Source: an uncultured Gammaproteobacteria bacterium | Lineage (GTDB): Bacteria; Patescibacteriota; Microgenomatia; UBA10105; UBA927 | Direction: 5' to 3' | DNA: 38,760 nt | NCBI GenBank assembly: GCA_964448085.1 | Contig: CAYUUX010000007.1 | Span: forward strand, 1 to 38,760 | Part shown: positions 43 through 38,760 of the stretch, piece by piece | Numbering within the stretch: the stretch's first letter is position 1 | Layout: every line of letters begins with the position of its first letter | Made by a program: the position numbers and the translations under genes | Notes under the pieces: model-generated | The model's database searches: none | Seen by the model: the letters and a program-made list of their open reading frames with translations, nothing else | Told to the model about the DNA's origin: nothing

Positions 43-2307
43 ATGCGGTTAACGAAAACTACGCTGTTTGACTTCATAAAGAATCACACACACGGATTGA
101 CGATTTGGGTATTTGCCGCGATTGTCGCTGTATTTTTTTATCGAACTATTTTTTTTACTCAACTTCCCGTCCCGTCGGACGACCTTGTAGGACTGTATCA
201 TCCATGGCGTGATGCATATGCGCATGCATTTCAAAATGGGGTTCCATTCAAAAACTTTCTTATTACAGACCCCATACGACAGCAAATTCCCTGGCGTAAA
301 CAAGTGATTGACGCATGGAAAGCTGGGAAAGCACCCCTTTGGAACGCATATGACTTTTCTGGGACACCGCTTCTCGGCAACATCCAGTCCGGCGCATTGT
401 ATCCGATGAACATAGTATTTTTTGTGTTTCCGTTTGAAATCGCATGGTCGTTATTAATCATCAGCCAACCTTTGCTTGCAGGAATTTTTCTATATCTGTT
501 TTTGCGCCATAAACATATTGAGCCCCTCGCTTCGTTAGTCGGTGCTATCATGTTTGCCTTTTCCGGATTTTCTATTGCGTGGCTCACTTGGGGGACGATT
601 GTGTCGACGATTTTATGGCTCCCCTTGGCGTTGTATTCGTTTGACGAAATACACACAGGGAGAAAGAAGTGGCCCTGGAGATTGTTGTTTATATGGTCCG
701 TTATTTCATCATTTTTTGCAGGGCATTTACAGATATTTTTTTATGGAATGCTGCTTTTTGTTGCGTATGCCGTAGGGCAACAAAAGGCGGTCAAACGAAC
801 AAAGCTTTCTGTGATGCACGTGATGATTCCATGTGTCATTCTGTTGATGACTGCACCCGCATGGATGCGTTTGATTCCCACATACATGGCAAGTTCACGG
901 ATGGAAGGTGTAATTTGGACAAATGAAGGATTCTTTATTCCCATCCGGCATCTCGTCCAATTTATTGCACCGGATTATTTCGGCAATCCGACAACATTAA
1001 ATTATTGGGGGACGTGGAATTACGGAGAAATGATAGGGTACATTGGAGTAATCGGTTTGGCTTTTGCGTTTATCGGAATGAGCAGAATAACCGTATTTTG
1101 GGTCGGAACAATCATTTGCTGCCTTGTTTTTGCGGTTGATGGACCAATTGCGAGGCTTCCATACGTGCTTCATATTCCGTTTTTGTCATCACTTCAGCCA
1201 ACGCGATTGATGGGTATTATTGATTTTTCCCTTTCCATTCTCGCAGCCTATGGTTTTTCATCGATTCTCAAAAACGAGAAGAAAAAGATATTTCGTATCG
1301 GCGTAGCTGTTATTGGAATATTACTTGTGGGTTTGTGGGGAAGCGTAAGTAAACCAGAATTATTTCATATTTCTACAGACCAGCTGATGGTTGCGAAACG
1401 GAATCTTATTCTTCCGACAATTCTATATGGTGTTTTAGTTGGAATGACAGTTCTATTGCAGTTTATCCGATCCCCATGGTATCTCATTCGCATCTTGTGT
1501 TGCGTTGTCTTCATAGCCGCGCTGTCCTTCGAATTGATTCGTTTTGGATGGAAATTTACACCATTTACTGAGGATACGTACTTTTTCCCAAAAACGGATA
1601 TTATTGAAACACTCGAACAGATGAAAAAACCGTTTCGTGTGCTTGCGACTGACGATCGTCTGGTTCCGCCAAACGTATTCGGATTTTACGGGATTGAGTC
1701 AGTGTCCGGGTATGATCCGATATATACGAGTCGGTATGAGGAATTTATCGCCGCCATGGAACGGGGCGAACCAAATATTCAGCCACCATTTGGTTTTAAC
1801 AGGATTATTGCACCAAAAACGATTACCTCTCCTTTGTTTAGTTTATTAAACGTTCACTTTATTGTTGCTATGGATACAATTACTTCTTCCAACGTACGTC
1901 TGCTTTCTGAGGAGGGAACAACAAAATTATATTCGGTTGTTCAAAAGACACCACGTATTTATTTTGCGGATGGCGTTCTATTTGAAACGACGAAACAAAA
2001 CGTCATGAATCGCTTATACGATCCATCATTTATTGGAGGGCAAACGGCTATTGTTGAGTCGCAACCATTTTCGGTCGGTGCTCAATCAACAAGCGATACT
2101 TTGAAGATGACGGTATATGAAGGTGATCATATAGAGATACAAACGATGACGGAACACATCCGATTTATGGTTGTCGGCAATATGATGGACAAGCATTGGC
2201 GCGTGTTTATTGATGGAAAAGAGGCTTCCATATATAGAACGAATTATCTGTTCTTCGGATTCCTCGTTCCAGACGGAACACACCAGATTAAGGTACAATA
2301 TCGTTAA
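43..2307 (+). CDS. YfhO-family GT-C membrane glycosyltransferase (754 aa), no C-terminal anchor helix
   Basis: N-terminal TM, then loop 'PSDDLVGLYHPW...ITDPIRQQIPWR...PLWNAYDFSGTPLLGN', many TM helices, and a C-terminal soluble region with 'W.VFIDG...RTNYLF.G..VP.GTH.I', typical of YfhO proteins. Confidence 0.85.
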   Translation: MRLTKTTLFDFIKNHTHGLTIWVFAAIVAVFFYRTIFFTQLPVPSDDLVGLYHPWRDAYAHAFQNGVPFKNFLITDPIRQQIPWRKQVIDAWKAGKAPLWNAYDFSGTPLLGNIQSGALYPMNIVFFVFPFEIAWSLLIISQPLLAGIFLYLFLRHKHIEPLASLVGAIMFAFSGFSIAWLTWGTIVSTILWLPLALYSFDEIHTGRKKWPWRLLFIWSVISSFFAGHLQIFFYGMLLFVAYAVGQQKAVKRTKLSVMHVMIPCVILLMTAPAWMRLIPTYMASSRMEGVIWTNEGFFIPIRHLVQFIAPDYFGNPTTLNYWGTWNYGEMIGYIGVIGLAFAFIGMSRITVFWVGTIICCLVFAVDGPIARLPYVLHIPFLSSLQPTRLMGIIDFSLSILAAYGFSSILKNEKKKIFRIGVAVIGILLVGLWGSVSKPELFHISTDQLMVAKRNLILPTILYGVLVGMTVLLQFIRSPWYLIRILCCVVFIAALSFELIRFGWKFTPFTEDTYFFPKTDIIETLEQMKKPFRVLATDDRLVPPNVFGFYGIESVSGYDPIYTSRYEEFIAAMERGEPNIQPPFGFNRIIAPKTITSPLFSLLNVHFIVAMDTITSSNVRLLSEEGTTKLYSVVQKTPRIYFADGVLFETTKQNVMNRLYDPSFIGGQTAIVESQPFSVGAQSTSDTLKMTVYEGDHIEIQTMTEHIRFMVVGNMMDKHWRVFIDGKEASIYRTNYLFFGFLVPDGTHQIKVQYR

Positions 2308-2309
2308 TT

Positions 2310-3212
2310 ATGGGAAAACCAACTGTATCAATCGTGCTCCCGAATTGGAATGGCGTGTATTTGTTGGAAAAACATCTGCAGAAAACGATTGATGCATCAA
2401 AAGGTGCTGAAATTATCGTGGCAGATGATTGTTCAACCGACGGATCCGTTGAATTTTTAGAGAAAAAATTTCCGAACGTTGTTATTGTTGCGAACAAAAA
2501 GCGGAATGGCTTTGCCGTTAATATAAATTCGGGAGTTGCAAAAGCAACGGGGGATGTCGTTGTTTTGGTGAATACGGATGTGGAACCGGAAGTGGGATAT
2601 CTCGAACCGCTTATCGAGCATTTTTCCGATAAAAATGTGTTTGCAGTCGGATGTATGGAAAAGAGTCAGGAGAAAGGTGGAGTAGTGCTTCGGGGAAGGG
2701 GTGTTGCTAGATGGGAGAAAGGATTTTATGTCCATGAGCGGGGTGAAGTAAATCAAACTGACACAGCATGGGTTTCTGGTGGCAGTGGAGCATTCCGTCA
2801 TTCTATGTGGAACATATTAGGTGGTATGGATATTCTTTATACGCCATTTTATTGGGAAGATATTGATTTATCATATCGCGCAAGGAAAATTGGTTGGAAG
2901 ATTATTTTTGAACCAAAAAGTATTGTTGATCATTACCACGAAGAGGGGAAAATAAAACGCGAATTTTCTCCGATTGATGTGAAACGTATTGTTTATCGCA
3001 ACCAATTTACGTTTATTTGGAAAAACGTGAGTCATCCTGCGATTTTCTTTACACACATTGTTTGGTTGCCCGTGAGATTAATCCAAGCTTTCATGAGGGG
3101 CGACATCGTCATGTTTCAAGGGTTTTTATTAGCTCTTACAAGGTTGCCACAGATATTCAAGAAACGATGTTCTCAATCGAAACTCTGGAAAATAAACGAT
3201 ACTGCGCTATGA
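2310..3212 (+). CDS. GT2 glycosyltransferase, WbbL/rhamnosyltransferase-like subgroup (300 aa)
   Basis: 'SIVLPNWNG', 'VADDCSTDGS', 'NGFAVNINSG', 'LVNTDV' and 'YWEDIDLSYRA..GW.I.FEP.S.V.H' GT2 motifs; soluble. Confidence 0.9.
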   Translation: MGKPTVSIVLPNWNGVYLLEKHLQKTIDASKGAEIIVADDCSTDGSVEFLEKKFPNVVIVANKKRNGFAVNINSGVAKATGDVVVLVNTDVEPEVGYLEPLIEHFSDKNVFAVGCMEKSQEKGGVVLRGRGVARWEKGFYVHERGEVNQTDTAWVSGGSGAFRHSMWNILGGMDILYTPFYWEDIDLSYRARKIGWKIIFEPKSIVDHYHEEGKIKREFSPIDVKRIVYRNQFTFIWKNVSHPAIFFTHIVWLPVRLIQAFMRGDIVMFQGFLLALTRLPQIFKKRCSQSKLWKINDTAL

Positions 3213-4672
3213 AGAAAAACATATTTTTCTTACTTCTTATTTTCATTACAATAATGGGATTAATTCTTCGTTTTTGGGATTATACAGACCGTTTTGGACT
3301 GGCATATGATCAAGCACATGATGCCTTGGTAGCTCGTTTCGCAATTCAGCAGGGAAAGTTACCTCTGCTCGGTCCATTTTCCTCTGCTGGACCGTTTCAA
3401 ACGTCAGGAACGTGGTATTGGTTGATTATGCTGGGAACGATATTTAATATGGGCAACGTTCTTGCCCCCTGGATTTTCTTGACCAGTTTATGCGGACTTA
3501 TGATTTTTGGGATGGGACTTATTGCACGTAAAATGGAAAACGAATCGTTTGGATTGATCGCGGCAATCCTCACTGCGATATCGACTGCGCAAATTGCACA
3601 ATCTGTGAATTTGACCAATCAAACACCAATTCCGATATTTTCGTTCCTTACGATCGTTTGTTCCTATATGTATCTGAAGAAAAAATCATATGTATCTGCA
3701 TTCGGGTTAGGGTTGTTTTCCGCCTGTGCAGCATCTATTCACCTTCAAGGAGTTGCGCTTGCGTTCATTGTATTTTGGACTTTCTGTTTTGCGGGGAAAT
3801 TTAAGATAAAACATTTTATGCTCGCATGTTTAGGAGCAGTTCTCCCCATGTTGCCGATTTTGATCTGGGATAGTCAGCATGGGTTTATCAATGTCTCGAA
3901 CATGTTTTATTACTACACGAAGGGGCAATTTGCCATATCTTTGGATGTACTGGGTCGTCGTTGGCTTACGTACTTAAAGGTTTTTTGGCCAACGGAGTGG
4001 GCACATATGATTGGAGGATTACCAGGTATAGCAATCGGTATTGCGGTTTTAAGCGGTTTGTGCTTTGTCTGGACTGCATGGAAACGACAATTAAAACGGG
4101 AATGGGTTGTTATTTTTCTTTCGTTTGCCTGCATGGTGATACTTATCCGATATATGCGTGTGCCGATTTTCGCAAGTTTCATCACCGTCACGCATCCGTT
4201 TGTTTTTCTGATTACGGCATGGGGTATCTATGTGATTGGAAAACAATGGAAAGCAGTTGGTCTAATAGTATTTGCCATTATTTTGGCTGGATCCATTTGG
4301 AAAACATACAGGGAACTTAGTCCAAAACACGTGAATTTGACCGCGGATAGTGCGAAAGAAACCCGGTTGTTACTCAAAAAACTGTATCCCGGTGAAAAAT
4401 TTGCAATCTATGATCTTAACTATGACGAAACACGTCGTTCAGTTCCGACAGCATTATATCTGGAAGAACAAGGGATGATTGATGAACATGGTCGACCGAT
4501 TGGATATATCCGAGCAAAAACACAGGCGATTTTTCATACAGATATCATTTCTTCCTCCTCAGGATTGATCTCCGATCTCTCATCTTCCTCAAGTGCAACA
4601 CTTACAAAAGATGGTTGGATCCGGGTGAATGCATCGGATATCTATCGGGAAACGGAAGATTGGAAAAAATAA
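3209..4672 (+). CDS. GT-C membrane glycosyltransferase, ArnT/PMT_2-like, 'DQAHD' subgroup (487 aa)
   Basis: Start re-called at ATG 3209, an ATGA overlap with the upstream stop, instead of the track's 3017. First TM is followed by 'LAYDQAHD...PLLGP.SS.G..QTSG.WYWL', then many TMs and a soluble C-terminal domain. Confidence 0.8.
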   Translation: MKKNIFFLLLIFITIMGLILRFWDYTDRFGLAYDQAHDALVARFAIQQGKLPLLGPFSSAGPFQTSGTWYWLIMLGTIFNMGNVLAPWIFLTSLCGLMIFGMGLIARKMENESFGLIAAILTAISTAQIAQSVNLTNQTPIPIFSFLTIVCSYMYLKKKSYVSAFGLGLFSACAASIHLQGVALAFIVFWTFCFAGKFKIKHFMLACLGAVLPMLPILIWDSQHGFINVSNMFYYYTKGQFAISLDVLGRRWLTYLKVFWPTEWAHMIGGLPGIAIGIAVLSGLCFVWTAWKRQLKREWVVIFLSFACMVILIRYMRVPIFASFITVTHPFVFLITAWGIYVIGKQWKAVGLIVFAIILAGSIWKTYRELSPKHVNLTADSAKETRLLLKKLYPGEKFAIYDLNYDETRRSVPTALYLEEQGMIDEHGRPIGYIRAKTQAIFHTDIISSSSGLISDLSSSSSATLTKDGWIRVNASDIYRETEDWKK

Positions 4673-4674: not shown

Positions 4675-6336
4675 TTATCGAGTTGCAATGAACGTTTCGC
4701 AGAATTTCTTCGTCTTCAGTGACTCCACCGCAAAATCCGACAGCGTGAGGTGATTAGGATATCGCTGTAATGTATAGGGAGTACAAAGTGTGTCGTGGAA
4801 AATGAGGTATGCTTCGCCGCCATCACGGAGTCGAGTCACTGCTGTATGTTGTTCGTTTGGTAAGACTGGACAGGAATAGTCAAAAATTGCCGTTTGAGAA
4901 GTAATAGATGTTAGCGTCGAAGGGCAATCGGCGAATATGACGCCATTTTTGGTGAGGGTATTTGCATAAAAATAATATTTTGTCAGAAAATCCCTGTTAT
5001 TATTGGAATATACCGTTGTTGTGATGTTGTTTGTTTTGGTTCGTACAAGGTAACTGGAAAGAACCCGGAATGAAAAGTCTCCGTAATTTTGAAGCGGATG
5101 TTGGATAAAATAGGCATAACCGAAATTGCACACTGAATAGAAATATATGCATCCAATTGCGATATATTTTCCCATTCTTAACCACTTCTTTTTGATGTCT
5201 CCGATTGTTGAAAGTCCGTATCCGATCGGAAATGTAAGCCATGGTAAAAGGAATGAAAGATGACTGGAAAAATCACCATTCATGGCGAATAACAAATGGG
5301 GAATCGTCCCAACAAGTGCGAGGAGAACGGTGAGAAAAAATATAGGGAGATTAGTCGAAAACAGCATTAAGAGCCCGAGAAACAAAAATGGAAGATCAAT
5401 GAAGTAGAAAAAGCCGTGTCCTTGGAGTGGGAAGAAAAGGTCAGCGTCGGCAAATAAATACGATGGTGAAAAAATGTTAAGTAGTTTATTGATGATTGTT
5501 TGTCCATAGATAGTCACTTTATTGATGAGAAGATTGGAAATCGGATTGTCGAGCGATAACTTCCTTGCTGCGTCGACTGCAGCAGTAACCTGTGGATTAT
5601 TTGGTAGATAGATATCACTCATTCTTGACGATGAATTGCGTGCAAGAAGGAAAAAGATACCGGAAATACTGAGAGCGAATACGATCATCAATAGATATTG
5701 TTTGAGATTTTTTCTTTTATGGATGAAATATGCGCATATTACTGAAACGAAAACAAACGGGATAAGAATGGTTTTCGTTGCAATATACGAATAGAACGCG
5801 AGAGTAAGGGGAATTGCCGTCCAAAGGATATTCCAGGACGATAGTGTGAGGAAAAGATACAATGAGAGAAGATAAAAGAATGTTGATACGGTTGTCTCGT
5901 ATCCCGTCCTGCCCATGACGATGATCCATGGATTGATGGCAGCAACCAGTCCGACAAAAAATCCTGCCCGTTCCCCAAGAAGTTTTTTAGCGATCGCGAA
6001 AAGAAGGATGACGACGCCGATGGAAAGGATTGCAAATAGTACGTGTACAGTGAAAAGCGTCTGTTGTGGCAAGTAGGCAAGAGGCAAATGTAAAAAATAA
6101 GGAAGCTCCGCTTGATGTTGATCGGGAGGATATTGGAATAGCAGTGCTTGCCAGATCGTCCACGTGCCAGTCATATCTTTGCCTGTTTGTGCAACAGCAC
6201 GAGCGGTGATTGGATACACAAGTTCGTCCCCCGCGATGGCGTTCGGGATGATGGATAGATATACAAGTCGGAACACACTTGCGATGAGAATGATGATGAC
6301 GAGTTGCCAGATAGAGTGGTGTTGTTTAATTTTCAT
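4675..6336 (-). CDS. GT-C membrane glycosyltransferase, 'DE' subgroup with 4-Cys C-terminal domain (553 aa)
   Basis: Start re-called at ATG 6336, 1 nt after the stop of the upstream minus-strand gene. 'AIAGDELVY', 'AAINPWIIVMGRTGYE', many TMs. Paralogue of 24917..26692. Confidence 0.8.
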   Translation of the reverse strand: MKIKQHHSIWQLVIIILIASVFRLVYLSIIPNAIAGDELVYPITARAVAQTGKDMTGTWTIWQALLFQYPPDQHQAELPYFLHLPLAYLPQQTLFTVHVLFAILSIGVVILLFAIAKKLLGERAGFFVGLVAAINPWIIVMGRTGYETTVSTFFYLLSLYLFLTLSSWNILWTAIPLTLAFYSYIATKTILIPFVFVSVICAYFIHKRKNLKQYLLMIVFALSISGIFFLLARNSSSRMSDIYLPNNPQVTAAVDAARKLSLDNPISNLLINKVTIYGQTIINKLLNIFSPSYLFADADLFFPLQGHGFFYFIDLPFLFLGLLMLFSTNLPIFFLTVLLALVGTIPHLLFAMNGDFSSHLSFLLPWLTFPIGYGLSTIGDIKKKWLRMGKYIAIGCIYFYSVCNFGYAYFIQHPLQNYGDFSFRVLSSYLVRTKTNNITTTVYSNNNRDFLTKYYFYANTLTKNGVIFADCPSTLTSITSQTAIFDYSCPVLPNEQHTAVTRLRDGGEAYLIFHDTLCTPYTLQRYPNHLTLSDFAVESLKTKKFCETFIATR

Positions 6337-6337
6337 A

Positions 6338-12640: not shown

Positions 12641-12661
12641 ACGCAACCTATGAATATGCTT

Positions 12662-23209: not shown

Positions 23210-23739
23210 AGAGATTACTCTGTTTATTGGTTTTTTTATTTATTCTAGTGAGAGTGAATATTGTGCGTGCAGAATACATGCTTCCATATCCTTCCTATAT
23301 GCCGGGAAACAAACTGTATAGTGTTTCTAAAATAATTGATTTTTTAAGGAAATACTGGTATTTCGGTAATCTCGCGAAGATAAAATATTATATGGCGCTT
23401 TCGGATAAATTATTAGTCGAAGCAAAAACGCTATTTGAATATAACCAATATGCACTTGCAATGCGTGCTACGATGGAATCGTCAGATGCAATTCTGCAGA
23501 TTCCGAAATATATTGAGGCAGAAAAAGCACAAAAAATTGATATACATCAATTCCAAGCGCTCTTCTGTGAGGAGTTAGTAACCCATCAAACTACAATACA
23601 TGCACTGACAAATAACTTACCACTCTCTTATACGTGGCGGGAAGAAAAAAAGGATGCCGTTGAATTACCGATTCGAGAAATACTCGAGGAGGCTGCAGCC
23701 GTTCGGCGGCTGTTGCAGGAATCCTATCATTGTTTATGA
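23206..23739 (+). CDS. Secreted DUF5667-like helical protein (177 aa)
   Basis: Signal peptide 'MKRLLCLLVFLFILVRVNIVRA', then 'YMLPYPSYMPGNKLY...D.LRKYW.F...AKIKY...LSDK.L.EA', resembling DUF5667. ATGA overlaps on both sides. Confidence 0.65.
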   Translation: MKRLLCLLVFLFILVRVNIVRAEYMLPYPSYMPGNKLYSVSKIIDFLRKYWYFGNLAKIKYYMALSDKLLVEAKTLFEYNQYALAMRATMESSDAILQIPKYIEAEKAQKIDIHQFQALFCEELVTHQTTIHALTNNLPLSYTWREEKKDAVELPIREILEEAAAVRRLLQESYHCL

Positions 23740-32723: not shown

Positions 32724-33511
32724 AATTATTCAGTTTGATTATTCCTGTATATAAGCAAGAGCACACTATTAAACGTGACATAGAAAAAGTCATCGAAGCA
32801 TTCGATGCAGTTTCGATTCCCTTTGAAATTCTTCCCGTGCTTGATGGATACATCGATAACAGTGAACAGGAAATCAGGAAAATTACCGATAAGCGGGTAC
32901 GCTTGGTCGGATACCCAACAAACCACGGAAAAGGGTATGCCGTACGATTTGGATTTGCGCATGCTGCAGGTGATGTCATTGGGTTTATGGATGCTGGCGG
33001 CGATTTATCTCCGAAAGCACTTGTTCCCATGCTTGCACAATTTGATTTTTTGAAAGCGGACGTCGTGCTTGGCAGCAAGCGTCATCCGGATTCAAAGGTG
33101 GAATACCCGGTGTACAGACGAATTCTTTCCTGGGGCTACCAAAGGCTAATTCATATATTGTTTGGGATCAACATTCGGGATTCTCAGGTGGGGATGAAAA
33201 TTTATAGACGGAAATTGTTGGAAGATGTGTTACCGCGCTTACTGGTCAAAAAATTTGCATTCGATATAGAGATACTCGCTGTTGCATATCATTTGGGATA
33301 TGCAAAAATTTACGAGGCACCGATTGAGTTGAATTTTCCAAAAGCTGTATCGACTATTACCATCGAAAAGATACTGCGGACTGTCGGCAATATGTTAAAT
33401 GATACGTTTGCCGTATTTTATAGACTGCATATCCTTCATTATTATGACAATGCGAATAAACGCAAATGGCGATTCGACCCCGAATTGAACTTTAGGATAA
33501 ATGTTGGGTAA
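32720..33511 (+). CDS. GT2, DPM/DPG-synthase-like (polyprenyl-phosphate glycosyltransferase-like), variant DAG motif (263 aa)
   Basis: 'IIPVYKQE', 'NHGKGYAVRFG', 'FMDAGGDLSP', 'VLGSKRHP.S', 'RDSQVGMK', 'KFAFDIEIL'. Confidence 0.8.
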   Translation: MKLFSLIIPVYKQEHTIKRDIEKVIEAFDAVSIPFEILPVLDGYIDNSEQEIRKITDKRVRLVGYPTNHGKGYAVRFGFAHAAGDVIGFMDAGGDLSPKALVPMLAQFDFLKADVVLGSKRHPDSKVEYPVYRRILSWGYQRLIHILFGINIRDSQVGMKIYRRKLLEDVLPRLLVKKFAFDIEILAVAYHLGYAKIYEAPIELNFPKAVSTITIEKILRTVGNMLNDTFAVFYRLHILHYYDNANKRKWRFDPELNFRINVG

Positions 33512-33514: not shown

Positions 33515-34627
33515 ATGAATATTTTACTTCTGAATTGGCGGGATCCATGGCATCCAAACGCTGGTGGAGCTGAAATTGTGACCATGGAACACGCAAGGGC
33601 TTGGGTAAGGGCAGGACACAGCGTCGTATGGGTAAGTGGTGGATACTATGAACAACGGAAAAAGCGGGAAATAGTCGACGGTATTACATTTCTTCGATTT
33701 GGTGGAGCGTTGACCATTCATTTAATTGTTCCTTTGTTTGTTCTTGCTGAAGGGAACAAATATGACGTTGTTGTCGATGAAGTGCATGGGATTCCTTTTT
33801 TTGCACCGCTGTTTACTCGGGTGCCAGTAATAGCATTCATTCATGAAGTAGCGGATGAAATTTGGGATTATATGTATAAATGGCCGATCGCTTCAATAGG
33901 AAAGTTGCTGGAACGTTGGGCGTTTCGATGGTATCGACGGTGTCTTATTTGGACGGATGCGCCATCAACCATTAATGAGCTGGTTGGGTTGGGTATACCA
34001 AAAAATCAGTGTTACGCAATTCCCTGCCCTATTGTTAAACAAAATATAACAAATTCCGAAAAGAAGGAAAAACAACCGACCTATATATTTGTTTCGCGTG
34101 TAGTCCGCATGAAGGGGATTGAAGAAGTTTTAAAAGCATTCTCGTTTATCATCAAAGAGCAACGAGCAGCGAATCTTTGGATTATCGGAAGCGGGAAGGC
34201 TTCATATATTCGTGAATTGAAGCGAATGGCGGAAGAATATGGAATTATCAAACACGTCGAATTTTTTGGATCGGTATCAGAGCAGGAAAAATACATACGC
34301 ATGGCACGTGCTCATTTGCTTCTTCACGGTTCTGTCAAAGAGGGATGGGGACTGGTTGTCCTTGAAGCTGCATCAGTTGGTACACCTTCTGTGGTATATA
34401 ACGTCGCAGGACTTAAGGATGTTGTCAGAGACCGCAAAACAGGTGTCGTCATAAAAACGAATTCACCACAGGATATGGCACGTGAGGCGATATTGCTTTA
34501 CCAAGATAAGAAACACTATACGCGGTTTCAGCTTGCCGGAAAGAAATGGGTCGACGGTTTTGACTGGAATATCGTGACGAAACAGAGCATGGAATTGTTA
34601 ACTAATGTTGCTCACAAAAAATTATGA
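33515..34627 (+). CDS. GT4 glycosyltransferase, 'NWRD..HP.AGGAE' (mycobacterial Rv0225-like) subgroup (370 aa)
   Basis: N-terminal 'LLNWRDPWHPNAGGAE', 'DVVVDEVHGIPF', 'SRVVRMKG', EX7E motif 'EGWGLVVLE'. Confidence 0.88.
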   Translation: MNILLLNWRDPWHPNAGGAEIVTMEHARAWVRAGHSVVWVSGGYYEQRKKREIVDGITFLRFGGALTIHLIVPLFVLAEGNKYDVVVDEVHGIPFFAPLFTRVPVIAFIHEVADEIWDYMYKWPIASIGKLLERWAFRWYRRCLIWTDAPSTINELVGLGIPKNQCYAIPCPIVKQNITNSEKKEKQPTYIFVSRVVRMKGIEEVLKAFSFIIKEQRAANLWIIGSGKASYIRELKRMAEEYGIIKHVEFFGSVSEQEKYIRMARAHLLLHGSVKEGWGLVVLEAASVGTPSVVYNVAGLKDVVRDRKTGVVIKTNSPQDMAREAILLYQDKKHYTRFQLAGKKWVDGFDWNIVTKQSMELLTNVAHKKL

Positions 34628-35961
34628 AAAAATGGATTGTCACAAGTATCCTCATTGGCATCATTCTGGTGGGATATTGGCTTCGTCACGATCATTTCTC
34701 AGTTTGGCCGAGAGAGGGGGCGACATTTGATGAATTTGCATGGACGTTTCAGGGGTTGAGCATCTTAAATACCGGCATTCCCGTGTCGTGGTCGCCGCAC
34801 ACCGCATATACGAATGCGACAGAATATTTCAATCCGCAAGGAACACATTTCCGTTTGGTAAAACCCTACCTTGAGCATCCGCCACTTTTCGGACTTGTTG
34901 CAGGAACATTTGCGAAACTCCGTGGGGTAAATACATTCGATCAAGTTACTATTCAACGGATTCGCCCGCTCGGTTTGTTGATGGGAGTTACGTCGATTAC
35001 CGCCGTATTTTTGCTCGCAAACGCAGTGTACGGTAATATCGTCGGACTGATCGCGGCAGGAGTGTATGCAGTCATTCCGACTGTTGTAGTCGGATCACGG
35101 CTTGTCCAAAACGAGAATTTTTTCATCCCGCTATTTCTGTTTGCCCTCTATTTTGCCTATCGGTATATCGAAAGGAGCGCAAAGAATAAGAAGCTGATTA
35201 CCGCAGATCTTATCGTGTCTTCCGTGCTTTCGGGGATACTCATTCTGGCGAAGATGCCATGGGTTACGGCGACAATAGCGGTCGTTGGCATGTTTCTTAT
35301 TGCAAGGAAATGGAAGGCAGCGGGAATTGTGTTTGGGACAACTACAGTATTTTTGATCGGATGGCTCATCTACGGATACACGATGGACGCAGCTGTTTTT
35401 CCCAATCTTTGGAAGCTACAGCTTGCCCGGTATGACATGGCGTTCGATAGTCTATTTATCATGTTCCGTGATCCAATCACTGCGGACCGGCTGCTTGTTG
35501 ACGGATGGATTTACTTCGGTTGGGCAGCGATAGTCTGGCTTTGTACGAAGGATCTGAAGAAAAACTTACCGATCATTATCGGTTTCTTGGCATATCTCGC
35601 GGTATTTGTGTTTGCAATTCCCAGCGAACCGATGCACGGATGGTATCGGTATCCATTTTATCCATTTTTGGCAATCGCAATTGCCGTATTTTTCAAAGAG
35701 TATTGGAATAGGAATTATGTAGTAACCGCGATTTCCTATGTTGTGATTGGGTTATCCATGTTTGCAGGCAGCTGGGGAAGGGTATTCGGTTTTTCCTATC
35801 CGGTGTTTCGGACATATTTGGCACTCATCGCATTCAATGCACTGCCTGCAGTTTTTCCGAAGTTAGCGGATAAGAAAATATTCCGATGGACGAACCGTAT
35901 TGTGCTTGTTCTTATCATCCTTCTTTCATTTTGGACGATAATCGCGTATAACGAACAGTGA
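34624..35961 (+). CDS. Compact GT-C with PMT-like 'FDE...HPPL' loop (445 aa), no C-terminal soluble domain
   Basis: 'GATFDEFAW...PYLEHPPLFG' in loop 1, followed by TMs to the very C-terminus. Confidence 0.8.
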   Translation: MKKWIVTSILIGIILVGYWLRHDHFSVWPREGATFDEFAWTFQGLSILNTGIPVSWSPHTAYTNATEYFNPQGTHFRLVKPYLEHPPLFGLVAGTFAKLRGVNTFDQVTIQRIRPLGLLMGVTSITAVFLLANAVYGNIVGLIAAGVYAVIPTVVVGSRLVQNENFFIPLFLFALYFAYRYIERSAKNKKLITADLIVSSVLSGILILAKMPWVTATIAVVGMFLIARKWKAAGIVFGTTTVFLIGWLIYGYTMDAAVFPNLWKLQLARYDMAFDSLFIMFRDPITADRLLVDGWIYFGWAAIVWLCTKDLKKNLPIIIGFLAYLAVFVFAIPSEPMHGWYRYPFYPFLAIAIAVFFKEYWNRNYVVTAISYVVIGLSMFAGSWGRVFGFSYPVFRTYLALIAFNALPAVFPKLADKKIFRWTNRIVLVLIILLSFWTIIAYNEQ

Positions 35962-35965: not shown

Positions 35966-36817
35966 ATGCATACCATCAGTTTCACTGTCGTTATCCCAAC
36001 GAAGAATTCCGAACTGCACATCAGTCGGTGTCTTCAAAGTATCCTCCGTCAGAATTATCCAAAATCATGTATAGAAGTAATTGTCAGTGATAATGAGAGT
36101 GTCGACAAAACCCTGGATATAGCGAAACGAAACGGAGTAAAAACAATCACAATCAACGGACCGGCGCCGCTTGTCTGTCAGCAACGGAATGTCGGTGCAG
36201 CGAAAGCGAAAGGGGATTATCTGTATTTTCTGGACCACGATATGGAGCTGCCGGTAAATTTTTTCCAACACGTTGCGAATCAGATACGGATGAAGCCTTT
36301 TATTGATGCGTGGCAGGTTCCCGAAATAGTTGAAGGAAAAGATATATTGTTGAGCAGAATGAAGACATTCGAAAAAATGAGTTATGGAGGAACATATATC
36401 GCTTCCGCCCGGATCATCAAACGCGAGGTTTTCAGGAAAAATGGTTTACGTTTCGAAGAATCGTTGTCGGGCGGACCGGCTGATTGGGATATGGATTTGC
36501 AACTAACGAAAGCGAAGAAGCAAATTGATTTGTTGGATACGTCCGTTATCCACCATGAAGAGGCATTGTCGATTGGTCAATCAATCCGCAAAAAAAAGAC
36601 GTATTTTGACGGAATCGAAAAATATAAGGCGAAATGGCGACGTAAAGATAGAAAATTGTATAATGAGGTGCTTATTCAGCAGCAGTTCAATCCGTGGTAC
36701 AGATTGTTCTCGGTATTTTTTACACGGAAAAACTGGTTGAATACGGTGAAACAGTTGCACATATATATAGTGTTCCTGATTTACAAAACGGCGATGGGAT
36801 TGTCATTTTTAAAATAA
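35966..36817 (+). CDS. GT2 glycosyltransferase (283 aa)
   Basis: 'VVIPTKNSE..I.RCL.SI..Q.Y', 'SDNESVD.T', 'QRNVGA..AKGDYLYFLDHDM', 'DWDM'. Confidence 0.9.
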   Translation: MHTISFTVVIPTKNSELHISRCLQSILRQNYPKSCIEVIVSDNESVDKTLDIAKRNGVKTITINGPAPLVCQQRNVGAAKAKGDYLYFLDHDMELPVNFFQHVANQIRMKPFIDAWQVPEIVEGKDILLSRMKTFEKMSYGGTYIASARIIKREVFRKNGLRFEESLSGGPADWDMDLQLTKAKKQIDLLDTSVIHHEEALSIGQSIRKKKTYFDGIEKYKAKWRRKDRKLYNEVLIQQQFNPWYRLFSVFFTRKNWLNTVKQLHIYIVFLIYKTAMGLSFLK

Positions 36818-36820
36818 TTT

Positions 36821-37486
36821 ATGGATAGCAAAAAAATATATCTGTTGGGCATTGGCGGGATGGCACGCGAAGCATATCAGTTATGCAACATAGTCTATCC
36901 AAAAAGCAAAATATGCGGATTCGTTGTTGATACGGTAGCGCCGAATATTTCTTCGATTGACCATGTTCCCGTGATACGGACGGACGATTTTCTCAAATTG
37001 GATTCAAAAAAAATCAGTGTCGTTGCATCAATCGGATCGCCCGAAAAGGAAGCAATGATTAACCGGATAATTTCTGCAGGCTTTACGTTTGTGTCTGTCG
37101 TACATCCGAGTGTGATGATAGATAAAACGGTCAAAATCGGAAAAGGCGTTATTATCAATCGAGGCGTTGTTCTGACGAGAGATATAGAAATCGGCAACTA
37201 TTCGATTATTAACATCACATCGTCAATTAGTCATGGTTGTGTCATTGGCAATTATTGTCATATTTCACCGGGTGTACACATCGCAGGAGATGTGACGATC
37301 GGAGACGGTACTTGGGTGGGAATTGGGACAACGGTGATACAGAAAAGAAGGATCGGCAATAACTGTATGATCGGCGCGGGATCAGTCATTGTTGAAGATA
37401 TACCGGATAATCGTTTAGTATACGGTAATCCCGGAAGAAGAAAACGTACAATTACAAAAAAAGACTGGAAGACACTTTTACTATGA
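36821..37486 (+). CDS. NeuD/PglD/VioB-family sugar N-acetyltransferase (221 aa)
   Basis: Rossmann-like N-terminus 'YLLGIGGMARE', then hexapeptide repeats 'SISHGCVIGNYCHISPGVHIAGDVTIGDGTWVGIG...YGNP'. Confidence 0.88.
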   Translation: MDSKKIYLLGIGGMAREAYQLCNIVYPKSKICGFVVDTVAPNISSIDHVPVIRTDDFLKLDSKKISVVASIGSPEKEAMINRIISAGFTFVSVVHPSVMIDKTVKIGKGVIINRGVVLTRDIEIGNYSIINITSSISHGCVIGNYCHISPGVHIAGDVTIGDGTWVGIGTTVIQKRRIGNNCMIGAGSVIVEDIPDNRLVYGNPGRRKRTITKKDWKTLLL

Positions 37487-38565
37487 TATTTGTAACGAAA
37501 AGCGAATTGCCGAAAATACAAGAATACGTTTCATATCTCAAAAAGATTTGGAAAAGCTCAATATTAACGAATAATGGGCCGCTCGCGCAGCAGCTCGAAA
37601 AGGAATTAAAAAGTTATCTCGATTGCGAAAATCTTGCGTTGGTAACGAATGGAACATTAGCGCTGCAACTGGCTTTTCGCGCCATGCAGTTATCGGGTGA
37701 AGTTATCACTACGCCATTTACATTCGCCGCAACCTCAACGGCGCTCATCTACGAAGGTCTGAAGCCGGTTTTTGCTGACATTGATTCTGACACATTTACC
37801 ATTTCGCCAAGTGATGTGAGGAAAAAAATTACGAAACGAACATCGGCAATTTTGGCAGTACACGTCTATGGAAATCCATGTCATATGGAAGAGTTGGCGA
37901 AAATCGCGCGCGAACATAACCTGAAACTGATCTATGATGCCGCGCATGCGTTCGGAGTTGAGTATAAAGGTAGATCCGTCATGCAATATGGTGACGTAAA
38001 CACCTTAAGCTTTCACGCAACGAAAGTGTTCAATACTATCGAAGGCGGTGCCATTATCACGAAAACCAAGAAAGCAGTAGACAGTGTGAAACTACTTCGG
38101 AATTTTGGCATCGTATCGGAAGAGGATGTGGAAATAGCCGGTATCAACGCAAAGATGAATGAGTTCCAGGCTGCTATGGGGCTTTGTAACATCAAAGCGA
38201 TCGAAGCAAAGATAAAAGCAAGGAAGTCGTTGTACGAAATATATGCGAAAGCATTTTCGGGAAATAAAAATATCCGAATGCAGAAACTGACAGCTTCGAA
38301 ATACAATTACAGTTATATGCCTGTGGTATTTCGATCGAAGACCATCAGGGATCGCGTTCATGACGAATTGGTAAAATCCGCGATAAAACCAAGGAAATAC
38401 TTCTATCCGCTAATTTCCGACTTCAAATTTATCGATCAAAAACGCGGCACATCATTGCCCGTATCGAAGAGCATCTCCGATGGAGTGCTTTGTCTGCCGT
38501 TATATTCAAGCCTCAATCATTCAATAGTAAAGAAAATAGCCCAAATCGCGCTATCTAACGCATGA
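37483..38565 (+). CDS. vioA: DegT/DnrJ/EryC1/StrS PLP aminotransferase, VioA-like (dTDP-4-amino-4,6-dideoxy-D-glucose transaminase) (360 aa)
   Basis: 'YLKKIW.S..LTNNGP..QQLE', 'NGTLAL', 'TTPFTF.AT', 'HVYGNPC', 'YDAAHAFG', 'SFHATKVFNTIEGGA' with the PLP lysine, 'NAKMNEFQAA', 'RKYFYP'. These match the VioA subgroup as I recall it; the family call is firm, the exact substrate less so. Confidence 0.78.
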   Translation: MIFVTKSELPKIQEYVSYLKKIWKSSILTNNGPLAQQLEKELKSYLDCENLALVTNGTLALQLAFRAMQLSGEVITTPFTFAATSTALIYEGLKPVFADIDSDTFTISPSDVRKKITKRTSAILAVHVYGNPCHMEELAKIAREHNLKLIYDAAHAFGVEYKGRSVMQYGDVNTLSFHATKVFNTIEGGAIITKTKKAVDSVKLLRNFGIVSEEDVEIAGINAKMNEFQAAMGLCNIKAIEAKIKARKSLYEIYAKAFSGNKNIRMQKLTASKYNYSYMPVVFRSKTIRDRVHDELVKSAIKPRKYFYPLISDFKFIDQKRGTSLPVSKSISDGVLCLPLYSSLNHSIVKKIAQIALSNA

Positions 38566-38760
38566 TCAAAAAAATATACAACGTATGCGTTTTTTCTGTA
38601 GGGCGACTTCGTGCCGCTATTTGGAAGCTGTTTTGCAAAAGAATTGGGAAAGACGTTTTTATATTGGGTAGTTGTCAGTTATTAAGTCCTGAAGGAATAG
38701 AAATTGGTGATTATTCAGGAATTAACCATCATGTGGTTTTATCAGGTGCAGGAGGGTTGA
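38562..38760 (+). CDS. Partial left-handed beta-helix (hexapeptide) acyltransferase, truncated by the window end
   Basis: Not in the ORF track. ATG 38562 overlaps the vioA stop (ATGA) and stays open to the end: MIKKIYNVCVFSVGRLRAAIWKLFCKRIGKDVFILGSCQLLSPEGIEIGDYSGINHHVVLSGAGGL, like the N-terminus of maltose/galactoside O-acetyltransferase-type proteins. Confidence 0.75.
   Translation, partial: MIKKIYNVCVFSVGRLRAAIWKLFCKRIGKDVFILGSCQLLSPEGIEIGDYSGINHHVVLSGAGGL

What the first reader, a model, noticed from the sequence alone, without database searches (positions are those of the whole stretch)
43..38760. Array of 17 GT-C glycosyltransferases from at least six subfamilies: a candidate extracytoplasmic glycan-building system with unknown acceptor
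Seen: 17 of 29 CDSs are multi-TM proteins with an acidic motif in an early extracytoplasmic loop. All are intact, and they are interleaved with 7 cytoplasmic GT2/GT4s, a flippase and amino-sugar genes. Established: GT-C enzymes use polyprenol-phosphate-sugar donors outside the membrane. Their known acceptors are lipid A (ArnT), lipoteichoic acid (YfhO), protein Ser/Thr (PMT) and lipoglycans (Mpt/Aft). Characterised bacterial loci usually hold a few, with mycobacteria the rich case. Inference: no lipid A, teichoic acid, Wzy/Wzz or OST gene is visible here, and if this is a CPR organism it should lack lipid A. The array may therefore extend a lipoglycan or protein-linked surface coat sugar by sugar outside the membrane. 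GT richness in CPR genomes has been noted in surveys, but I know of no biochemical description of such an array.
Basis: partly seen in the sequence, partly recalled or inferred. Interest (0 to 1): 0.82.

Follow-up and report, generated by a model that had tools for sequence, protein, structure and literature searches.

The report
Conserved 17-enzyme membrane glycosyltransferase array
A tiny-genome groundwater bacterium (Microgenomates, CPR) spends three quarters of this 39-kb stretch on 17 different membrane enzymes that add sugars outside the cell; the gene order is kept across its relatives, which points to a large surface glycan of unknown structure that nobody has described.

Summary
The window has 28 complete CDSs and one partial CDS. 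Seventeen are intact multi-TM proteins, and all 17 can be tied to the GT-C superfamily. Nine reach a Pfam gathering score (YfhO, PMT_2, PTPS_related). Six are linked by weaker Pfam hits or by clear paralogy. g16 belongs to the MptA_B family (PF26314). g08 founds an unannotated family whose AlphaFold model matches only GT-C structures. All 17 keep an acidic residue in an early loop that is predicted to lie outside the membrane. They fall into seven sequence groups. Paralogs are 22-34% identical, while each has its own ortholog at 40-70% in related genomes. The core order g09-g10-g11-g13-g14-g15-g16-g19-g20-g21-g22-g23-g24 recurs in all 18 long metagenome loci and in contigs of about 1 Mb. The named relatives are Gottesmanbacteria/Microgenomates. 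A conserved trio is a plausible donor-supply module: a DPMS/ArnC-like GT2, a MOP flippase and a second such GT2. Best reading: an ancient extracytoplasmic pathway fed by polyprenyl-phosphate sugars that builds a complex surface glycan. The acceptor is unknown. No Wzy, Wzz, initiating transferase or WWDYG oligosaccharyltransferase is present in the window. This is a new variant of a known kind, with exceptional enzyme density and no published description found.

The parts
43..2307 (+). g01, YfhO-type GT-C (754 aa, about 11 TM, large C-terminal extracytoplasmic domain)
   Evidence: Pfam YfhO 57.9 bits, cutoff 28.5. Paralog of g06 and g07. D46/D47 follow TM1.
2310..3212 (+). g02, soluble GT2 glycosyltransferase
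   Evidence: Pfam Glycos_transf_2 1.6e-22. General EpsD/MftF-like by NCBIfam. Orthologs at 53-66%.
3209..4672 (+). g03, GT-C, PMT_2-like group D (487 aa from ATG 3209)
   Evidence: PMT_2 18.3 bits, below cutoff. BLAST links to g11, g12 and g18. Ortholog lengths are 490/487 aa. Conserved Asp in 'AYDQ' after TM1.
4675..6399 (-). g04, GT-C, PMT-like 'DE' group (start at 6399 or 6336)
   Evidence: PMT_2 23.7 bits. Paralog of g17 (4e-70), g09 and g10. D58-E59 invariant in the group alignment.
6338..7855 (-). g05, GT-C, group D
   Evidence: No Pfam hit. BLAST to g18 6e-14 and g11 5e-11. D36. Ortholog at 55% in L004.
7922..10222 (+). g06, YfhO-type GT-C
   Evidence: Pfam YfhO 65 bits. D34 after TM1.
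10223..12646 (-). g07, YfhO-type GT-C
   Evidence: Pfam YfhO 67.6 bits. 468 homologs, named ones YfhO family of Gottesmanbacteria/Microgenomates. D41.
12703..14685 (+). g08, founding member of an unannotated GT-C family (660 aa)
   Evidence: No Pfam or NCBIfam hit. AF2 model pLDDT 75, pTM 0.82. Foldseek top 13 hits are PglB, DPY19, STT3A, AftA, ArnT, ALG12 and ALG9, all at probability 0.99-1.00. hhalign 93% to group D. Invariant D133. 1,897 representative clusters in the family.
14731..16371 (+). g09, GT-C, PMT-like 'DE' group
   Evidence: PMT_2 34.3 bits. D31-E32. Reciprocal-best orthologs in 15 loci at 48-65%.
16368..17993 (+). g10, GT-C, PMT-like 'DE' group
   Evidence: PMT_2 48.1 bits. D32-E33. 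Orthologs in 19 loci.
17990..19498 (+). g11, GT-C, group D
   Evidence: No Pfam hit. BLAST to g12 9e-22 and g18 1e-19. D40. Orthologs in 18 loci.
19503..20801 (+). g12, GT-C, group D (variable member)
   Evidence: PMT_2 22.9 bits. D53. Orthologs in only 3 loci.
20808..22457 (+). g13, GT-C, PTPS_related family
   Evidence: PF10131 44.1 bits. D34. Orthologs in 22 of 23 loci. hhalign 98.8% to the YfhO group.
22439..23209 (+). g14, GT2 glycosyltransferase, core member
   Evidence: Glycos_transf_2 6e-17. Orthologs in 22 of 23 loci at 46-67%.
23206..23739 (+). g15, secreted or anchored helical protein, weak DUF5667, core member of unknown role
   Evidence: DUF5667 21.7 bits, below cutoff. N-terminal signal-like segment. 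Orthologs in 22 of 23 loci.
23736..24920 (+). g16, GT-C of the MptA_B family (GT-C_B type)
   Evidence: Precomputed PF26314 on all listed homologs. AF2 pLDDT 83. Best PDB fold hit is yeast ALG3 at probability 0.97 but E 0.35. Invariant D120 in 'YDxFNY'.
24917..26692 (+). g17, GT-C, 'DE' group (variable member)
   Evidence: No Pfam hit. BLAST to g04 4e-70 and g09 2e-21. D38-E39.
26676..28166 (+). g18, GT-C, group D
   Evidence: PMT_2 31.9 bits. E38. Orthologs in 5 loci.
28163..29743 (+). g19, GT-C, PTPS_related with a YfhO-like C-terminus
   Evidence: PF10131 54.3 bits. D32. Orthologs in 20 loci.
29748..30782 (+). g20, cytoplasmic GT4
   Evidence: Glycos_transf_1 2.8e-27. Orthologs in 20 loci.
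30770..31462 (+). g21, soluble GT2, predicted polyprenyl-phosphate sugar synthase
   Evidence: Best NCBIfam hits are AglJ, ArnC, PgfS, Dol-P-hexose transferase and PpgS. Best PDB hits are Dol-P-Man synthase 5mlz 3e-22, ArnC and GtrB. Orthologs at 62-70%.
31464..32723 (+). g22, MOP-superfamily (Wzx-type) flippase
   Evidence: Polysacc_synt_3 34.7 bits. About 11 TM. Always sits between the g21 and g23 orthologs.
32720..33511 (+). g23, soluble GT2, second predicted polyprenyl-phosphate sugar synthase
   Evidence: NCBIfam PgfS, ArnC and PpgS. The only PDB hits are Dol-P-Man synthase and ArnC.
33515..34627 (+). g24, cytoplasmic GT4
   Evidence: Glycos_transf_1 3.6e-38. Orthologs in 18 loci.
34624..35961 (+). 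g25, GT-C, PMT_2, singleton group
   Evidence: PMT_2 51.1 bits. D36-E37 'FDEFAW'. Orthologs in 9 loci.
35966..36817 (+). g26, GT2 with a C-terminal TM segment
   Evidence: Glycos_transf_2 1.1e-18. TM at 264-282.
36821..37486 (+). g27, NeuD/PglD/VioB-family sugar N-acetyltransferase
   Evidence: TIGR03570 188.3 bits, cutoff 160.8.
37483..38565 (+). g28, DegT/DesI/PseC-type NDP-4-keto-6-deoxyhexose aminotransferase
   Evidence: PF01041 1.2e-91. DesI 2.4e-82 and PseC 2.5e-61, both below equivalog cutoffs.
38562..38760 (+). Partial ORF, WcaF-like hexapeptide acetyltransferase. The cluster continues beyond the window.
   Evidence: L001 is identical DNA that continues 3.4 kb further. It carries a 111-aa WcaF-like ORF, a GT2, a GT8 and a methyltransferase.

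Best explanation
This is a lineage-wide, vertically inherited envelope-glycan cluster of Microgenomates/Gottesmanbacteria-type CPR bacteria. Its chemistry takes place mainly on the outer face of the cytoplasmic membrane.

Proposed mechanism:
1. g27 and g28, with NDP-sugar enzymes encoded elsewhere, make an NDP-4-acetamido-4,6-dideoxyhexose. The cytoplasmic GT4s (g20, g24) and GT2s (g02, g14, g26) build a lipid-linked primer. This step is inferred.
2. The two soluble DPMS/ArnC/GtrB-like GT2s (g21, g23) load single sugars onto polyprenyl phosphate. The family resemblance is shown; the substrates are inferred.
3. The MOP flippase g22, always encoded between g21 and g23, moves the lipid-linked sugar(s) and/or the primer to the outside. 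This is inferred from adjacency and from MATE/MOP flippases in known three-component systems.
4. The 17 GT-C enzymes each use a loop Asp/Glu as catalytic base and transfer those sugars to an extracytoplasmic acceptor. The fold, family and motif are shown; the activity is inferred.

About 10 of the GT-Cs have kept one-to-one orthologs in fixed order while sharing only 22-34% identity with each other, and only two donor synthases serve all 17. They therefore most likely differ in acceptor and linkage specificity and act successively on one complex product. The most likely product is a lipid- or wall-anchored heteropolysaccharide, made in the way mycobacteria make LM/LAM and arabinogalactan. g08, g12, g17, g18 and g25 would be lineage-variable branching or capping steps.
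For: GT-C identity of all 17.

Conserved acidic loop residue in every group.

Donor synthases: g21 and g23 hit Dol-P-Man synthase 5mlz, ArnC, GtrB, AglJ, PgfS and PpgS.

Flippase: g22 is Polysacc_synt_3 and sits between g21 and g23 in every long locus. A MATE-family flippase serves a lipid-linked monosaccharide donor in a characterised three-component system (PMC11127046). One g08-family protein is fused to such a flippase.

Deep paralogy with conserved orthology and order: paralogs are 22-34% identical and orthologs 40-70%. The core order is kept in 18 of 18 metagenome loci of 16 kb or more, with GC 0.33-0.52. L004, L007 and L008 show it too. A 995-kb contig holds about 14 GT-Cs in 32.6 kb.

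Operon-like packing: junctions of -4 to +6 nt are common.

No Wzy, Wzz, initiating transferase or WWDYG motif in the window.
Against: - No enzymatic, lipid or glycan data exist.
- The acceptor is not identified. No anchor-synthesis, ligase (LCP) or initiating phosphoglycosyltransferase gene is in the window.
- Only two of the 17 were modelled. The g16 fold match is weak (E 0.35, TM 0.36), and the g08 TM-scores are only 0.4-0.5.
- g21 and g23 score below every NCBIfam equivalog cutoff, so their sugars are unknown.
- Conserved order is also expected for a set of independent but essential glycosylation enzymes, so 'one product, successive steps' is not proven.
- The whole genome could not be searched for LTA/WTA pathways (limited the context).
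Confidence: 0.55

Rival explanations
1. This is protein glycosylation machinery. The PMT-like, YfhO/Pgf-like and g08 (PglB-like fold) enzymes would glycosylate different surface proteins (pilins, S-layer, adhesins) directly from polyprenyl-phosphate sugars. This would resemble eukaryotic PMT/TMTC/TMEM260 paralogs, streptococcal PgfS/PgfM1/PgfM2, or archaeal AglJ/AglS-type steps.
For: - Five proteins carry the PMT-type Asp-Glu pair after TM1.
- The YfhO-type proteins give their only NCBIfam hits to PgfM1/PgfM2, and g21 and g23 hit PgfS and AglJ.
- The best g08 fold matches are PglB, DPY19 and STT3A.
- A PglD/NeuD acetyltransferase with a DegT aminotransferase is typical of bacillosamine-type sugars in protein glycosylation loci.
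Against: - All those NCBIfam hits are far below cutoff (16-113 bits against cutoffs of 325-1500).
- No STT3 family hit and no WWD(Y/W)G motif.
- No candidate acceptor protein is in the cluster apart from the small g15, which is not Ser/Thr-rich.
- Characterised bacterial protein-glycosylation loci use one or two GT-Cs (my own knowledge).
Confidence: 0.25
2. The enzymes are independent Gtr/YfhO-style decorators. Each GT-C would add a single side-chain sugar to a polymer made elsewhere (LTA, WTA, a peptidoglycan-linked polysaccharide), giving surface variation for host attachment or phage evasion.
For: - Three-component logic is present: a GT2 synthase, a flippase and GT-Cs.
- Part of the set is variable between genomes. 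g08, g12, g17 and g18 have orthologs in 1-5 of 23 loci, and extra copies occur elsewhere.
Against: - The core GT-Cs (g09, g10, g11, g13, g16, g19) are kept one-to-one in fixed order across loci with GC 0.33-0.52. That is the opposite of the patchy, mobile distribution of serotype-converting decorators.
- There is no GtrA/GtcA-type small flippase in the window.
- The ratio of 17 GT-Cs to 2 synthases departs from the 1:1:1 module.
Confidence: 0.15
3. Several of the 17 are not active glycosyltransferases. They could be scaffold or flippase-associated membrane proteins, or degenerate paralogs that only resemble GT-C.
For: - Five have no direct Pfam hit.
- g09, g10 and g18 give weak hits to Agl23, 'flippase activity-associated protein'.
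- PDB profile searches find almost nothing.
Against: Every group keeps its loop Asp/Glu across orthologs at 40-60% identity. All ORFs are intact and under evident purifying selection.
Confidence: 0.05

Closest known systems
Mycobacterial/corynebacterial LM-LAM and arabinogalactan assembly (PimA/PimB GT4s; Ppm1; GT-Cs PimE, MptA, MptB, MptC, EmbA-C, AftA-D)
   Same: Cytoplasmic GT4 steps come first. Many GT-C enzymes of different subfamilies then draw on one or two polyprenyl-phosphate sugar donors outside the membrane. g16 falls in the MptA_B Pfam family, and AftA and ArnT are among the g08 fold matches.
   Different: The phylum is different (CPR, genome of about 1 Mb). The genes are packed in a single cluster of about 35 kb instead of being scattered. 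Most members are YfhO, PMT_2 or PTPS_related types rather than Emb/Aft types. No phosphatidylinositol anchor genes or decaprenyl-phosphoarabinose genes were seen. The product is unknown.
Three-component extracytoplasmic glycosylation systems (GtrA/GtrB/GtrC; CsbB/GtcA/YfhO; the PPPRS/MATE flippase/GT136 system of PMC11127046)
   Same: A GT2 polyprenyl-phosphate sugar synthase, a flippase and a GT-C transferase. Three members are bona fide YfhO-family proteins. A MOP/MATE-type flippase is a plausible donor flippase.
   Different: The ratio is 2 synthases : 1 flippase : 17 GT-Cs rather than 1:1:1. There is no GtrA/GtcA-type flippase. The core is conserved rather than mobile or variable. The acceptor polymer (LTA, WTA, O antigen) is not identified.
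ER-lumenal and archaeal steps of N-glycan assembly (DPM1/ALG5; RFT1; ALG3/9/12 and ALG6/8/10; STT3; archaeal AglJ/AglD, AglR, AglS, AglB)
   Same: Cytoplasmic GT4/GT2 steps, a MOP-like flippase, Dol-P-sugar synthase-like GT2s, then several GT-Cs acting on the far side of the membrane. The best g16 fold hit is ALG3. g08 hits PglB, STT3A, ALG9 and ALG12. The best family hit of g21 is AglJ. AglS is a Dol-P-Man-dependent GT-C (PMC4973528).
   Different: No STT3/AglB family hit and no WWDYG motif. No ALG7/WecA-type initiating enzyme in the window. The similarities are at fold or superfamily level only.
Streptococcus mutans Pgf protein glycosylation system (PgfS, PgfM1, PgfM2, PgfE)
   Same: A GT2 together with two YfhO-like GT-Cs. 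The only NCBIfam hits of g01, g06 and g07 are PgfM1/PgfM2, and g21 and g23 hit PgfS.
   Different: Scores are 16-70 bits against cutoffs of 500-1500, so these are not equivalogs. The array here is far larger and no adhesin target is encoded nearby.

Membership tests
GT-C glycosyltransferase superfamily (Pfam clan CL0111) | Polytopic membrane protein with 8 or more TM helices | tested here: met
   Hydropathy gives 5-12 strong TM segments in all 17 at a conservative threshold. AF2 models of g08 and g16 are all-helical bundles.
GT-C glycosyltransferase superfamily (Pfam clan CL0111) | Sequence or profile match to a GT-C family | tested here: met
   Nine at gathering score (YfhO, PMT_2, PTPS_related) and three below it. 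g05, g11 and g17 link by paralogy. g16 links through precomputed PF26314 on its homologs. g08 links by hhalign at 93%.
GT-C glycosyltransferase superfamily (Pfam clan CL0111) | Conserved Asp/Glu in an early extracytoplasmic loop | tested here: met
   A group-invariant acidic residue lies 10-25 residues after the first TM segment in 15 proteins. In g08 and g16 it follows the third or fourth helix. The outside location is inferred from Lys/Arg-rich N-termini and was not measured.
GT-C glycosyltransferase superfamily (Pfam clan CL0111) | GT-C fold in three dimensions | tested here: inconclusive
   g08: the top 13 PDB hits are all GT-C, probability 0.99-1.00, TM 0.30-0.49. g16: ALG3 at probability 0.97 but E 0.35 and TM 0.36.
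GT-C glycosyltransferase superfamily (Pfam clan CL0111) | Uses a polyprenyl-phosphate-linked sugar donor | not testable with these tools
   Indirect support only: two DPMS/ArnC/GtrB-like GT2s sit in the cluster.
YfhO/CsbB/GtcA teichoic-acid glycosylation | YfhO-family GT-C, CsbB-type GT2, GtcA/GtrA-type flippase and an LTA/WTA acceptor pathway | tested here: not met
   YfhO is present (g01, g06, g07) and GT2 synthase candidates are present. No GtrA-like protein and no LtaS/Tag gene is in the window. The rest of the genome was not searchable.
Protein O-mannosyltransferase (PMT, GT39) | PF02366 PMT match at gathering score plus the loop-1 Asp-Glu pair | tested here: inconclusive
   The Asp-Glu pair is present in g04, g09, g10, g17 and g25. 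The best PF02366 score is 20.5 against a cutoff of 22.7 (g09). Some orthologs do carry PF02366 in precomputed annotation.
Oligosaccharyltransferase (STT3/PglB/AglB) | STT3 family match and a WWD(Y/W)G motif in the external domain | tested here: not met
   No PF02516 hit. g25 scores 23 bits against archaeo_STT3, cutoff 450. No WWD motif in any of the 28 proteins. g08 resembles PglB only at fold level.
Wzx/Wzy-dependent polysaccharide locus | Wzx flippase, Wzy polymerase, initiating phosphoglycosyltransferase and chain-length regulator | tested here: not met
   Only the Wzx-type g22 was found. g16, the Wzy-sized candidate, belongs to MptA_B. No Bac_transf/WecA-type or Wzz hit.
Three-component Gtr-type glycosylation system | One polyprenyl-phosphate sugar synthase, one flippase and one GT-C acting as a self-contained module on a pre-made glycan | tested here: inconclusive
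   All three component types are present and g21-g22-g23 are adjacent. The ratio is 2:1:17 and the core is conserved, not modular or mobile.
Mycobacterial LM/LAM-type lipoglycan pathway | MptA/MptB-family GT-C, Ppm1-type synthase, PimA/B-type GT4s and phosphatidylinositol anchor synthesis | tested here: inconclusive
   An MptA_B-family member (g16), Ppm1-like GT2s (g21, g23) and GT4s (g20, g24) are present. No PI synthase is in the window and the genome was not searchable.

The most novel reading that the evidence does not exclude
Microgenomates-type CPR bacteria may build their main surface glycoconjugate almost entirely outside the membrane. Ten or more GT-C enzymes would act in succession on a flipped lipid-linked primer. 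That would be a bacterial counterpart of the ER-lumenal/archaeal lipid-linked oligosaccharide route. The previously unannotated g08 family has a PglB/STT3-like fold, about 1,900 representative clusters and one flippase fusion. It would act as the final transferase or ligase that moves the finished glycan en bloc onto a protein or the cell wall.
Probability: 0.12. Interest if true: 0.88.

Novelty: new variant of a known kind. Interest (0 to 1): 0.64.

Why it matters
CPR bacteria are thought to live attached to or dependent on other cells, yet the chemistry of their envelope is essentially unknown. These organisms have genomes of about 1 Mb and minimal metabolism. Here they keep 14-17 GT-C enzymes in one cluster, about 3% of the genome. 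From my own knowledge, that is as many as Mycobacterium tuberculosis spreads over 4.4 Mb. Each paralog has been preserved across deep divergence, which implies a large, structurally defined surface glycan that matters to their biology.

The cluster offers three things:
- a concrete, conserved genetic handle for finding that glycan and its role in host attachment or phage interaction;
- several uncharacterised GT-C subfamilies, including the Pfam-less g08 family, for enzymology and structure work;
- a compact natural example of multi-step extracytoplasmic glycan assembly, comparable with LAM/arabinogalactan and ER N-glycan biosynthesis.

Tried and rejected
- g16 as a Wzy polymerase or O-antigen ligase (396 aa, about 9 TM, no local Pfam hit). 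Rejected: all homologs carry PF26314 MptA_B_family and the only probable fold hit is ALG3.
- g08 as a transporter or non-GT membrane protein. Rejected: Foldseek probability falls from 0.99 or more for 13 GT-C structures to 0.14 or less for transporters.
- Canonical N-oligosaccharyltransferase. Rejected: no STT3 hit and no WWD motif.
- g27 as LpxA/LpxD (lipid A). Rejected: those hits are 62-66 bits against cutoffs of 207-242, whereas NeuD/PglD/VioB passes its cutoff.
- Recent duplication or assembly artefact. Rejected: paralogs are only 22-34% identical and each has its own ortholog elsewhere.
- PDB sequence-profile searches for the five GT-C groups gave only ArnT at E 0.008 for one group. g22 found no solved relative.
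- The genome-contig scan with the full g08 alignment failed for lack of a conserved stretch. The narrower alignment found a single locus whose record title says 'Gammaproteobacteria'. I regard that label as unreliable, given the content of the locus.
- Looking up the g01 protein to extend the context upstream found nothing on record, so the left neighbourhood of the array is unknown.
- The listing of cluster members returned no names for ten NCBI-sourced homologs.
- Promoter/terminator scan: promoter-like sites were below the shuffled expectation and terminator-like sites lay inside genes, so it was uninformative.
- No tRNA and no Rfam family in the window.
- Eight literature searches found no description of GT-C arrays in CPR/Patescibacteria. 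There are only passing notes of multiple 'dolichol-phosphate mannosyltransferase' annotations in Peregrinibacteria and Saccharibacteria.

Full report
**What is in the window.** ORF listing and hydropathy analysis give 28 complete CDSs and one 3' partial CDS with almost no intergenic DNA. Most gene junctions are between -4 and +6 nt. Three genes are on the minus strand (g04, g05, g07).

Seventeen CDSs encode polytopic membrane proteins of 394-807 aa: g01, g03-g13, g16-g19 and g25. The remaining genes are:
- five GT2 (g02, g14, g21, g23, g26) and two GT4 (g20, g24);
- a Polysacc_synt_3/MOP flippase (g22);
- a small secreted helical protein with a weak DUF5667 match (g15);
- a NeuD/PglD/VioB acetyltransferase (g27), which passes its NCBIfam cutoff;
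- a DegT/DesI/PseC-type aminotransferase (g28).

The partial last ORF is a WcaF-like acetyltransferase. An identical JGI contig (L001) shows the locus continuing with a GT2, a GT8 and a methyltransferase. The 17 membrane proteins take up 74% of the window.

**Are the 17 really GT-C enzymes?**
- Nine reach Pfam gathering scores for GT-C clan families: YfhO (g01, g06, g07), PMT_2 (g09, g10, g18, g25) and PTPS_related (g13, g19).
- g03, g04 and g12 hit PMT_2 below threshold.
- g05, g11 and g17 have no Pfam hit even at E = 10. They are unambiguous paralogs of the above: g17-g04 E 4e-70, g11-g12 9e-22, g05-g18 6e-14.
- The two PMT_2-like groups match each other at 98.6% hhalign probability, and YfhO matches PTPS_related at 98.8%.
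- g16 looked like a possible Wzy. However, all 120 listed homologs carry the precomputed Pfam family PF26314 (MptA_B_family), including one at 99% identity, and so do its orthologs in three fetched loci. The local Pfam copy gave no hit for g16. Its AlphaFold model (pLDDT 83) has yeast ALG3 as its only probable PDB match, but weakly: probability 0.97, E 0.35, TM 0.36.
- g08 has no Pfam or NCBIfam hit. Its family profile matches the g03/g05/g11/g12/g18 group at 93%. Its model has pLDDT 75 and pTM 0.82. The model's top 13 PDB matches are PglB, DPY19, STT3A, AftA, ArnT, ALG12 and ALG9, all at probability 0.99-1.00. Probability then falls to 0.14 or less for unrelated transporters.

Every group keeps an acidic residue in an early loop:
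- an Asp-Glu pair in g04, g09, g10, g17 and g25;
- Asp, or Glu in g18, in g03, g05, g11 and g12;
- Asp in an 'HDG' context in g13 and g19;
- Asp in a 'PxD(L/D)L' context in g01, g06 and g07;
- invariant D133 in g08 and D120 in g16.

I count seven sequence groups, so 'at least six' is right. I could model only two proteins, so the fold of the other 15 rests on family membership.

**Where it comes from.** The few named homologs are Candidatus Gottesmanbacteria, a 'Microgenomates group bacterium' and an ACD_48C uncultured bacterium. Homologs sit on contigs of 0.99, 1.01, 1.02 and 1.09 Mb, the size of complete CPR genomes. Many related contigs come from Hainich groundwater 0.1 and 0.2 um filter fractions. 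The single GTDB-representative hit is titled 'uncultured Gammaproteobacteria'. Its gene content and order match the Microgenomates-type array, so I treat that label as doubtful. The CPR assignment is well supported but indirect, because the window has no marker genes, tRNA or rRNA.

**The array is ancient and conserved.** This is the main new result.
- A Logan contig (L004), the GTDB locus (L007) and a 1.09-Mb contig (L008) carry the same genes in the same order. Each window gene has its own ortholog at 40-70% identity, while paralogs within the window share only 22-34%.
- A metagenome scan with the g16 family found 316 relatives. In all 18 loci of 16 kb or more (GC 0.33-0.52) the order g09-g10-g11-g13-g14-g15-g16-(g18)-g19-g20-g21-g22-g23-g24-(g25) is preserved, with 4-9 GT-Cs per roughly 20 kb.
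- Reciprocal-best orthologs occur in 15-22 of 23 long loci for g09, g10, g11, g13, g14, g15, g16, g19-g24. They occur in only 1-9 loci for g08, g12, g17, g18 and g25.
- On a 995-kb contig, a 32.6-kb stretch holds about 14 GT-Cs, including equivalents of g01-g07.

The duplications therefore long predate the divergence of these genomes. Each paralog has been kept by selection. There is a fixed core plus a variable fringe.

**How it probably works.**
- g21 and g23 are soluble GT2s. Their best solved relatives are Pyrococcus Dol-P-Man synthase, ArnC and GtrB. Their best NCBIfam hits are AglJ, ArnC, PgfS, Dol-P-hexose transferase and PpgS. All are below equivalog cutoffs, so the class is indicated but the sugar is not.
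- They always flank the MOP flippase g22. In a characterised three-component system, a MATE-family flippase exports the polyprenyl-phosphate sugar donor for a GT-C (PMC11127046). One g08-family protein in the databases is fused to a Polysacc_synt_3 flippase.
- I therefore read g21-g22-g23 as a donor-supply module. The GT4s and remaining GT2s, with the 4-amino-sugar enzymes, would be the cytoplasmic primer-building part. The 17 GT-Cs would be the extracytoplasmic transferases.
- Only two donor synthases serve 17 GT-Cs, and the core GT-Cs are conserved one-to-one. The enzymes must therefore differ mainly in acceptor and linkage specificity. The simplest model is successive action on one complex product, as in mycobacterial LM/LAM and arabinogalactan. 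The variable members would be lineage-specific branches.

The fold, family, motif and synteny are shown. The donors, topology, order of action and acceptor are inferred.

**Rivals.**
- Direct protein glycosylation. It fits the PMT-type Asp-Glu pairs, the Pgf/Agl-like weak hits, the PglB-like fold of g08 and a PglD/DegT pair. It lacks any STT3 hit, WWD motif or candidate acceptor.
- Independent Gtr/YfhO-style decoration of a polymer made elsewhere. It fits the component types and the variable fringe. It fits the strictly conserved core and the 2:1:17 ratio poorly.
- Non-catalytic paralogs. This is unlikely, because the acidic residues are conserved.

I could not search the rest of the genome for LTA/WTA, anchor or ligase genes.

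**Comparison with what is known.** The system works most like LM/LAM and arabinogalactan assembly, and like three-component extracytoplasmic glycosylation. It also parallels ER and archaeal lumenal N-glycan steps at the level of architecture. It is not a member of the Wzx/Wzy, OST or YfhO-CsbB-GtcA systems by their defining features (see the membership table).

Eight full-text searches found no description of such arrays in CPR/Patescibacteria. There are only passing remarks about multiple 'dolichol-phosphate mannosyltransferase' annotations (PMC4736985, PMC6031116).

The g08 family is large: 1,897 representative clusters at E <= 1e-3 and 965 at E <= 1e-30. Nine of its members gave no Pfam match to the g08-like region.

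**Verdict.** This is a new variant of a known kind. It is an unusually dense, deeply conserved multi-GT-C pathway in a minimal-genome lineage, and its product and acceptor are unknown. Interest 0.64. The score is held down because the enzyme class and the general logic are known. It is held up by the density, the conservation, the uncharacterised subfamilies, and the direct route the cluster offers to CPR envelope chemistry.

Noticed in passing
window 12703-14685 (g08); proteins P0253-P0401: The g08-type GT-C family is large: 1,897 representative clusters at E <= 1e-3 and 965 at E <= 1e-30. Nine members tested have no Pfam match to the g08-like region. Long forms (about 1000-1160 aa) add a signal anchor and about 450 non-TM residues at the N-terminus. 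One 1639-aa protein (P0280) is fused to a Polysacc_synt_3 flippase.
   Followed up: partly
L091 16390-16767: On the 995-kb related contig, a 125-aa gene with bAvd/23S_rRNA_IVP domains sits inside the conserved cluster, between the g23 and g24 equivalents. bAvd is the accessory protein type of diversity-generating retroelements. No reverse transcriptase was seen in the 21 kb shown.
   Followed up: no
L007 (CAYRFA010000005.1): The GTDB-representative MAG contig is titled 'uncultured Gammaproteobacteria bacterium'. It carries the same ordered GT-C array as the Microgenomates/Gottesmanbacteria-type loci, so the taxonomic label looks wrong.
   Followed up: partly
window 23206-23739 (g15): A small protein with a signal-like N-terminus, a helical body and a sub-threshold DUF5667 match is kept between the GT2 g14 and the MptA_B-type g16 in 22 of 23 long loci. 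Its role is unknown. It is not Ser/Thr-rich, so it is not an obvious O-glycosylation target.
   Followed up: partly
window 38562-38760; L001 8404-8739: The 3' partial ORF is a WcaF-like hexapeptide acetyltransferase. On the identical longer contig it is only 111 aa and covers profile positions 33-117 of 183, followed by a 214-nt gap. It may be truncated or frameshifted.
   Followed up: partly
window 1-38000: GC skew is positive in every 2-kb bin regardless of gene strand. AT skew follows gene orientation in the membrane-protein region: negative where those genes are on the + strand, positive at 4-8 kb and 10-12 kb where they are on the - strand. It is also positive at 36-38 kb, where + strand genes encode soluble enzymes. 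This fits T-rich codons for hydrophobic residues laid over a replication-strand G excess.
   Followed up: no
window 3017-3212, 6336-6399, 12628-12702: The mechanical ORF starts are probably too long. g03 likely starts at ATG 3209 (a 4-nt overlap with the g02 stop) rather than TTG 3017. g08 likely starts at 12703, matching the 660-aa cluster representative. g04 may start at 6336 rather than 6399.
   Followed up: partly
L008 20340-21143; L091 17895-19835: In related genomes the cluster is followed by NTP_transferase and dehydratase/epimerase genes (RmlA/RmlB-like), which would feed the DegT/acetyltransferase step. In one genome it is followed by a 646-aa unannotated minus-strand ORF that may be a further GT-C.
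   Followed up: no
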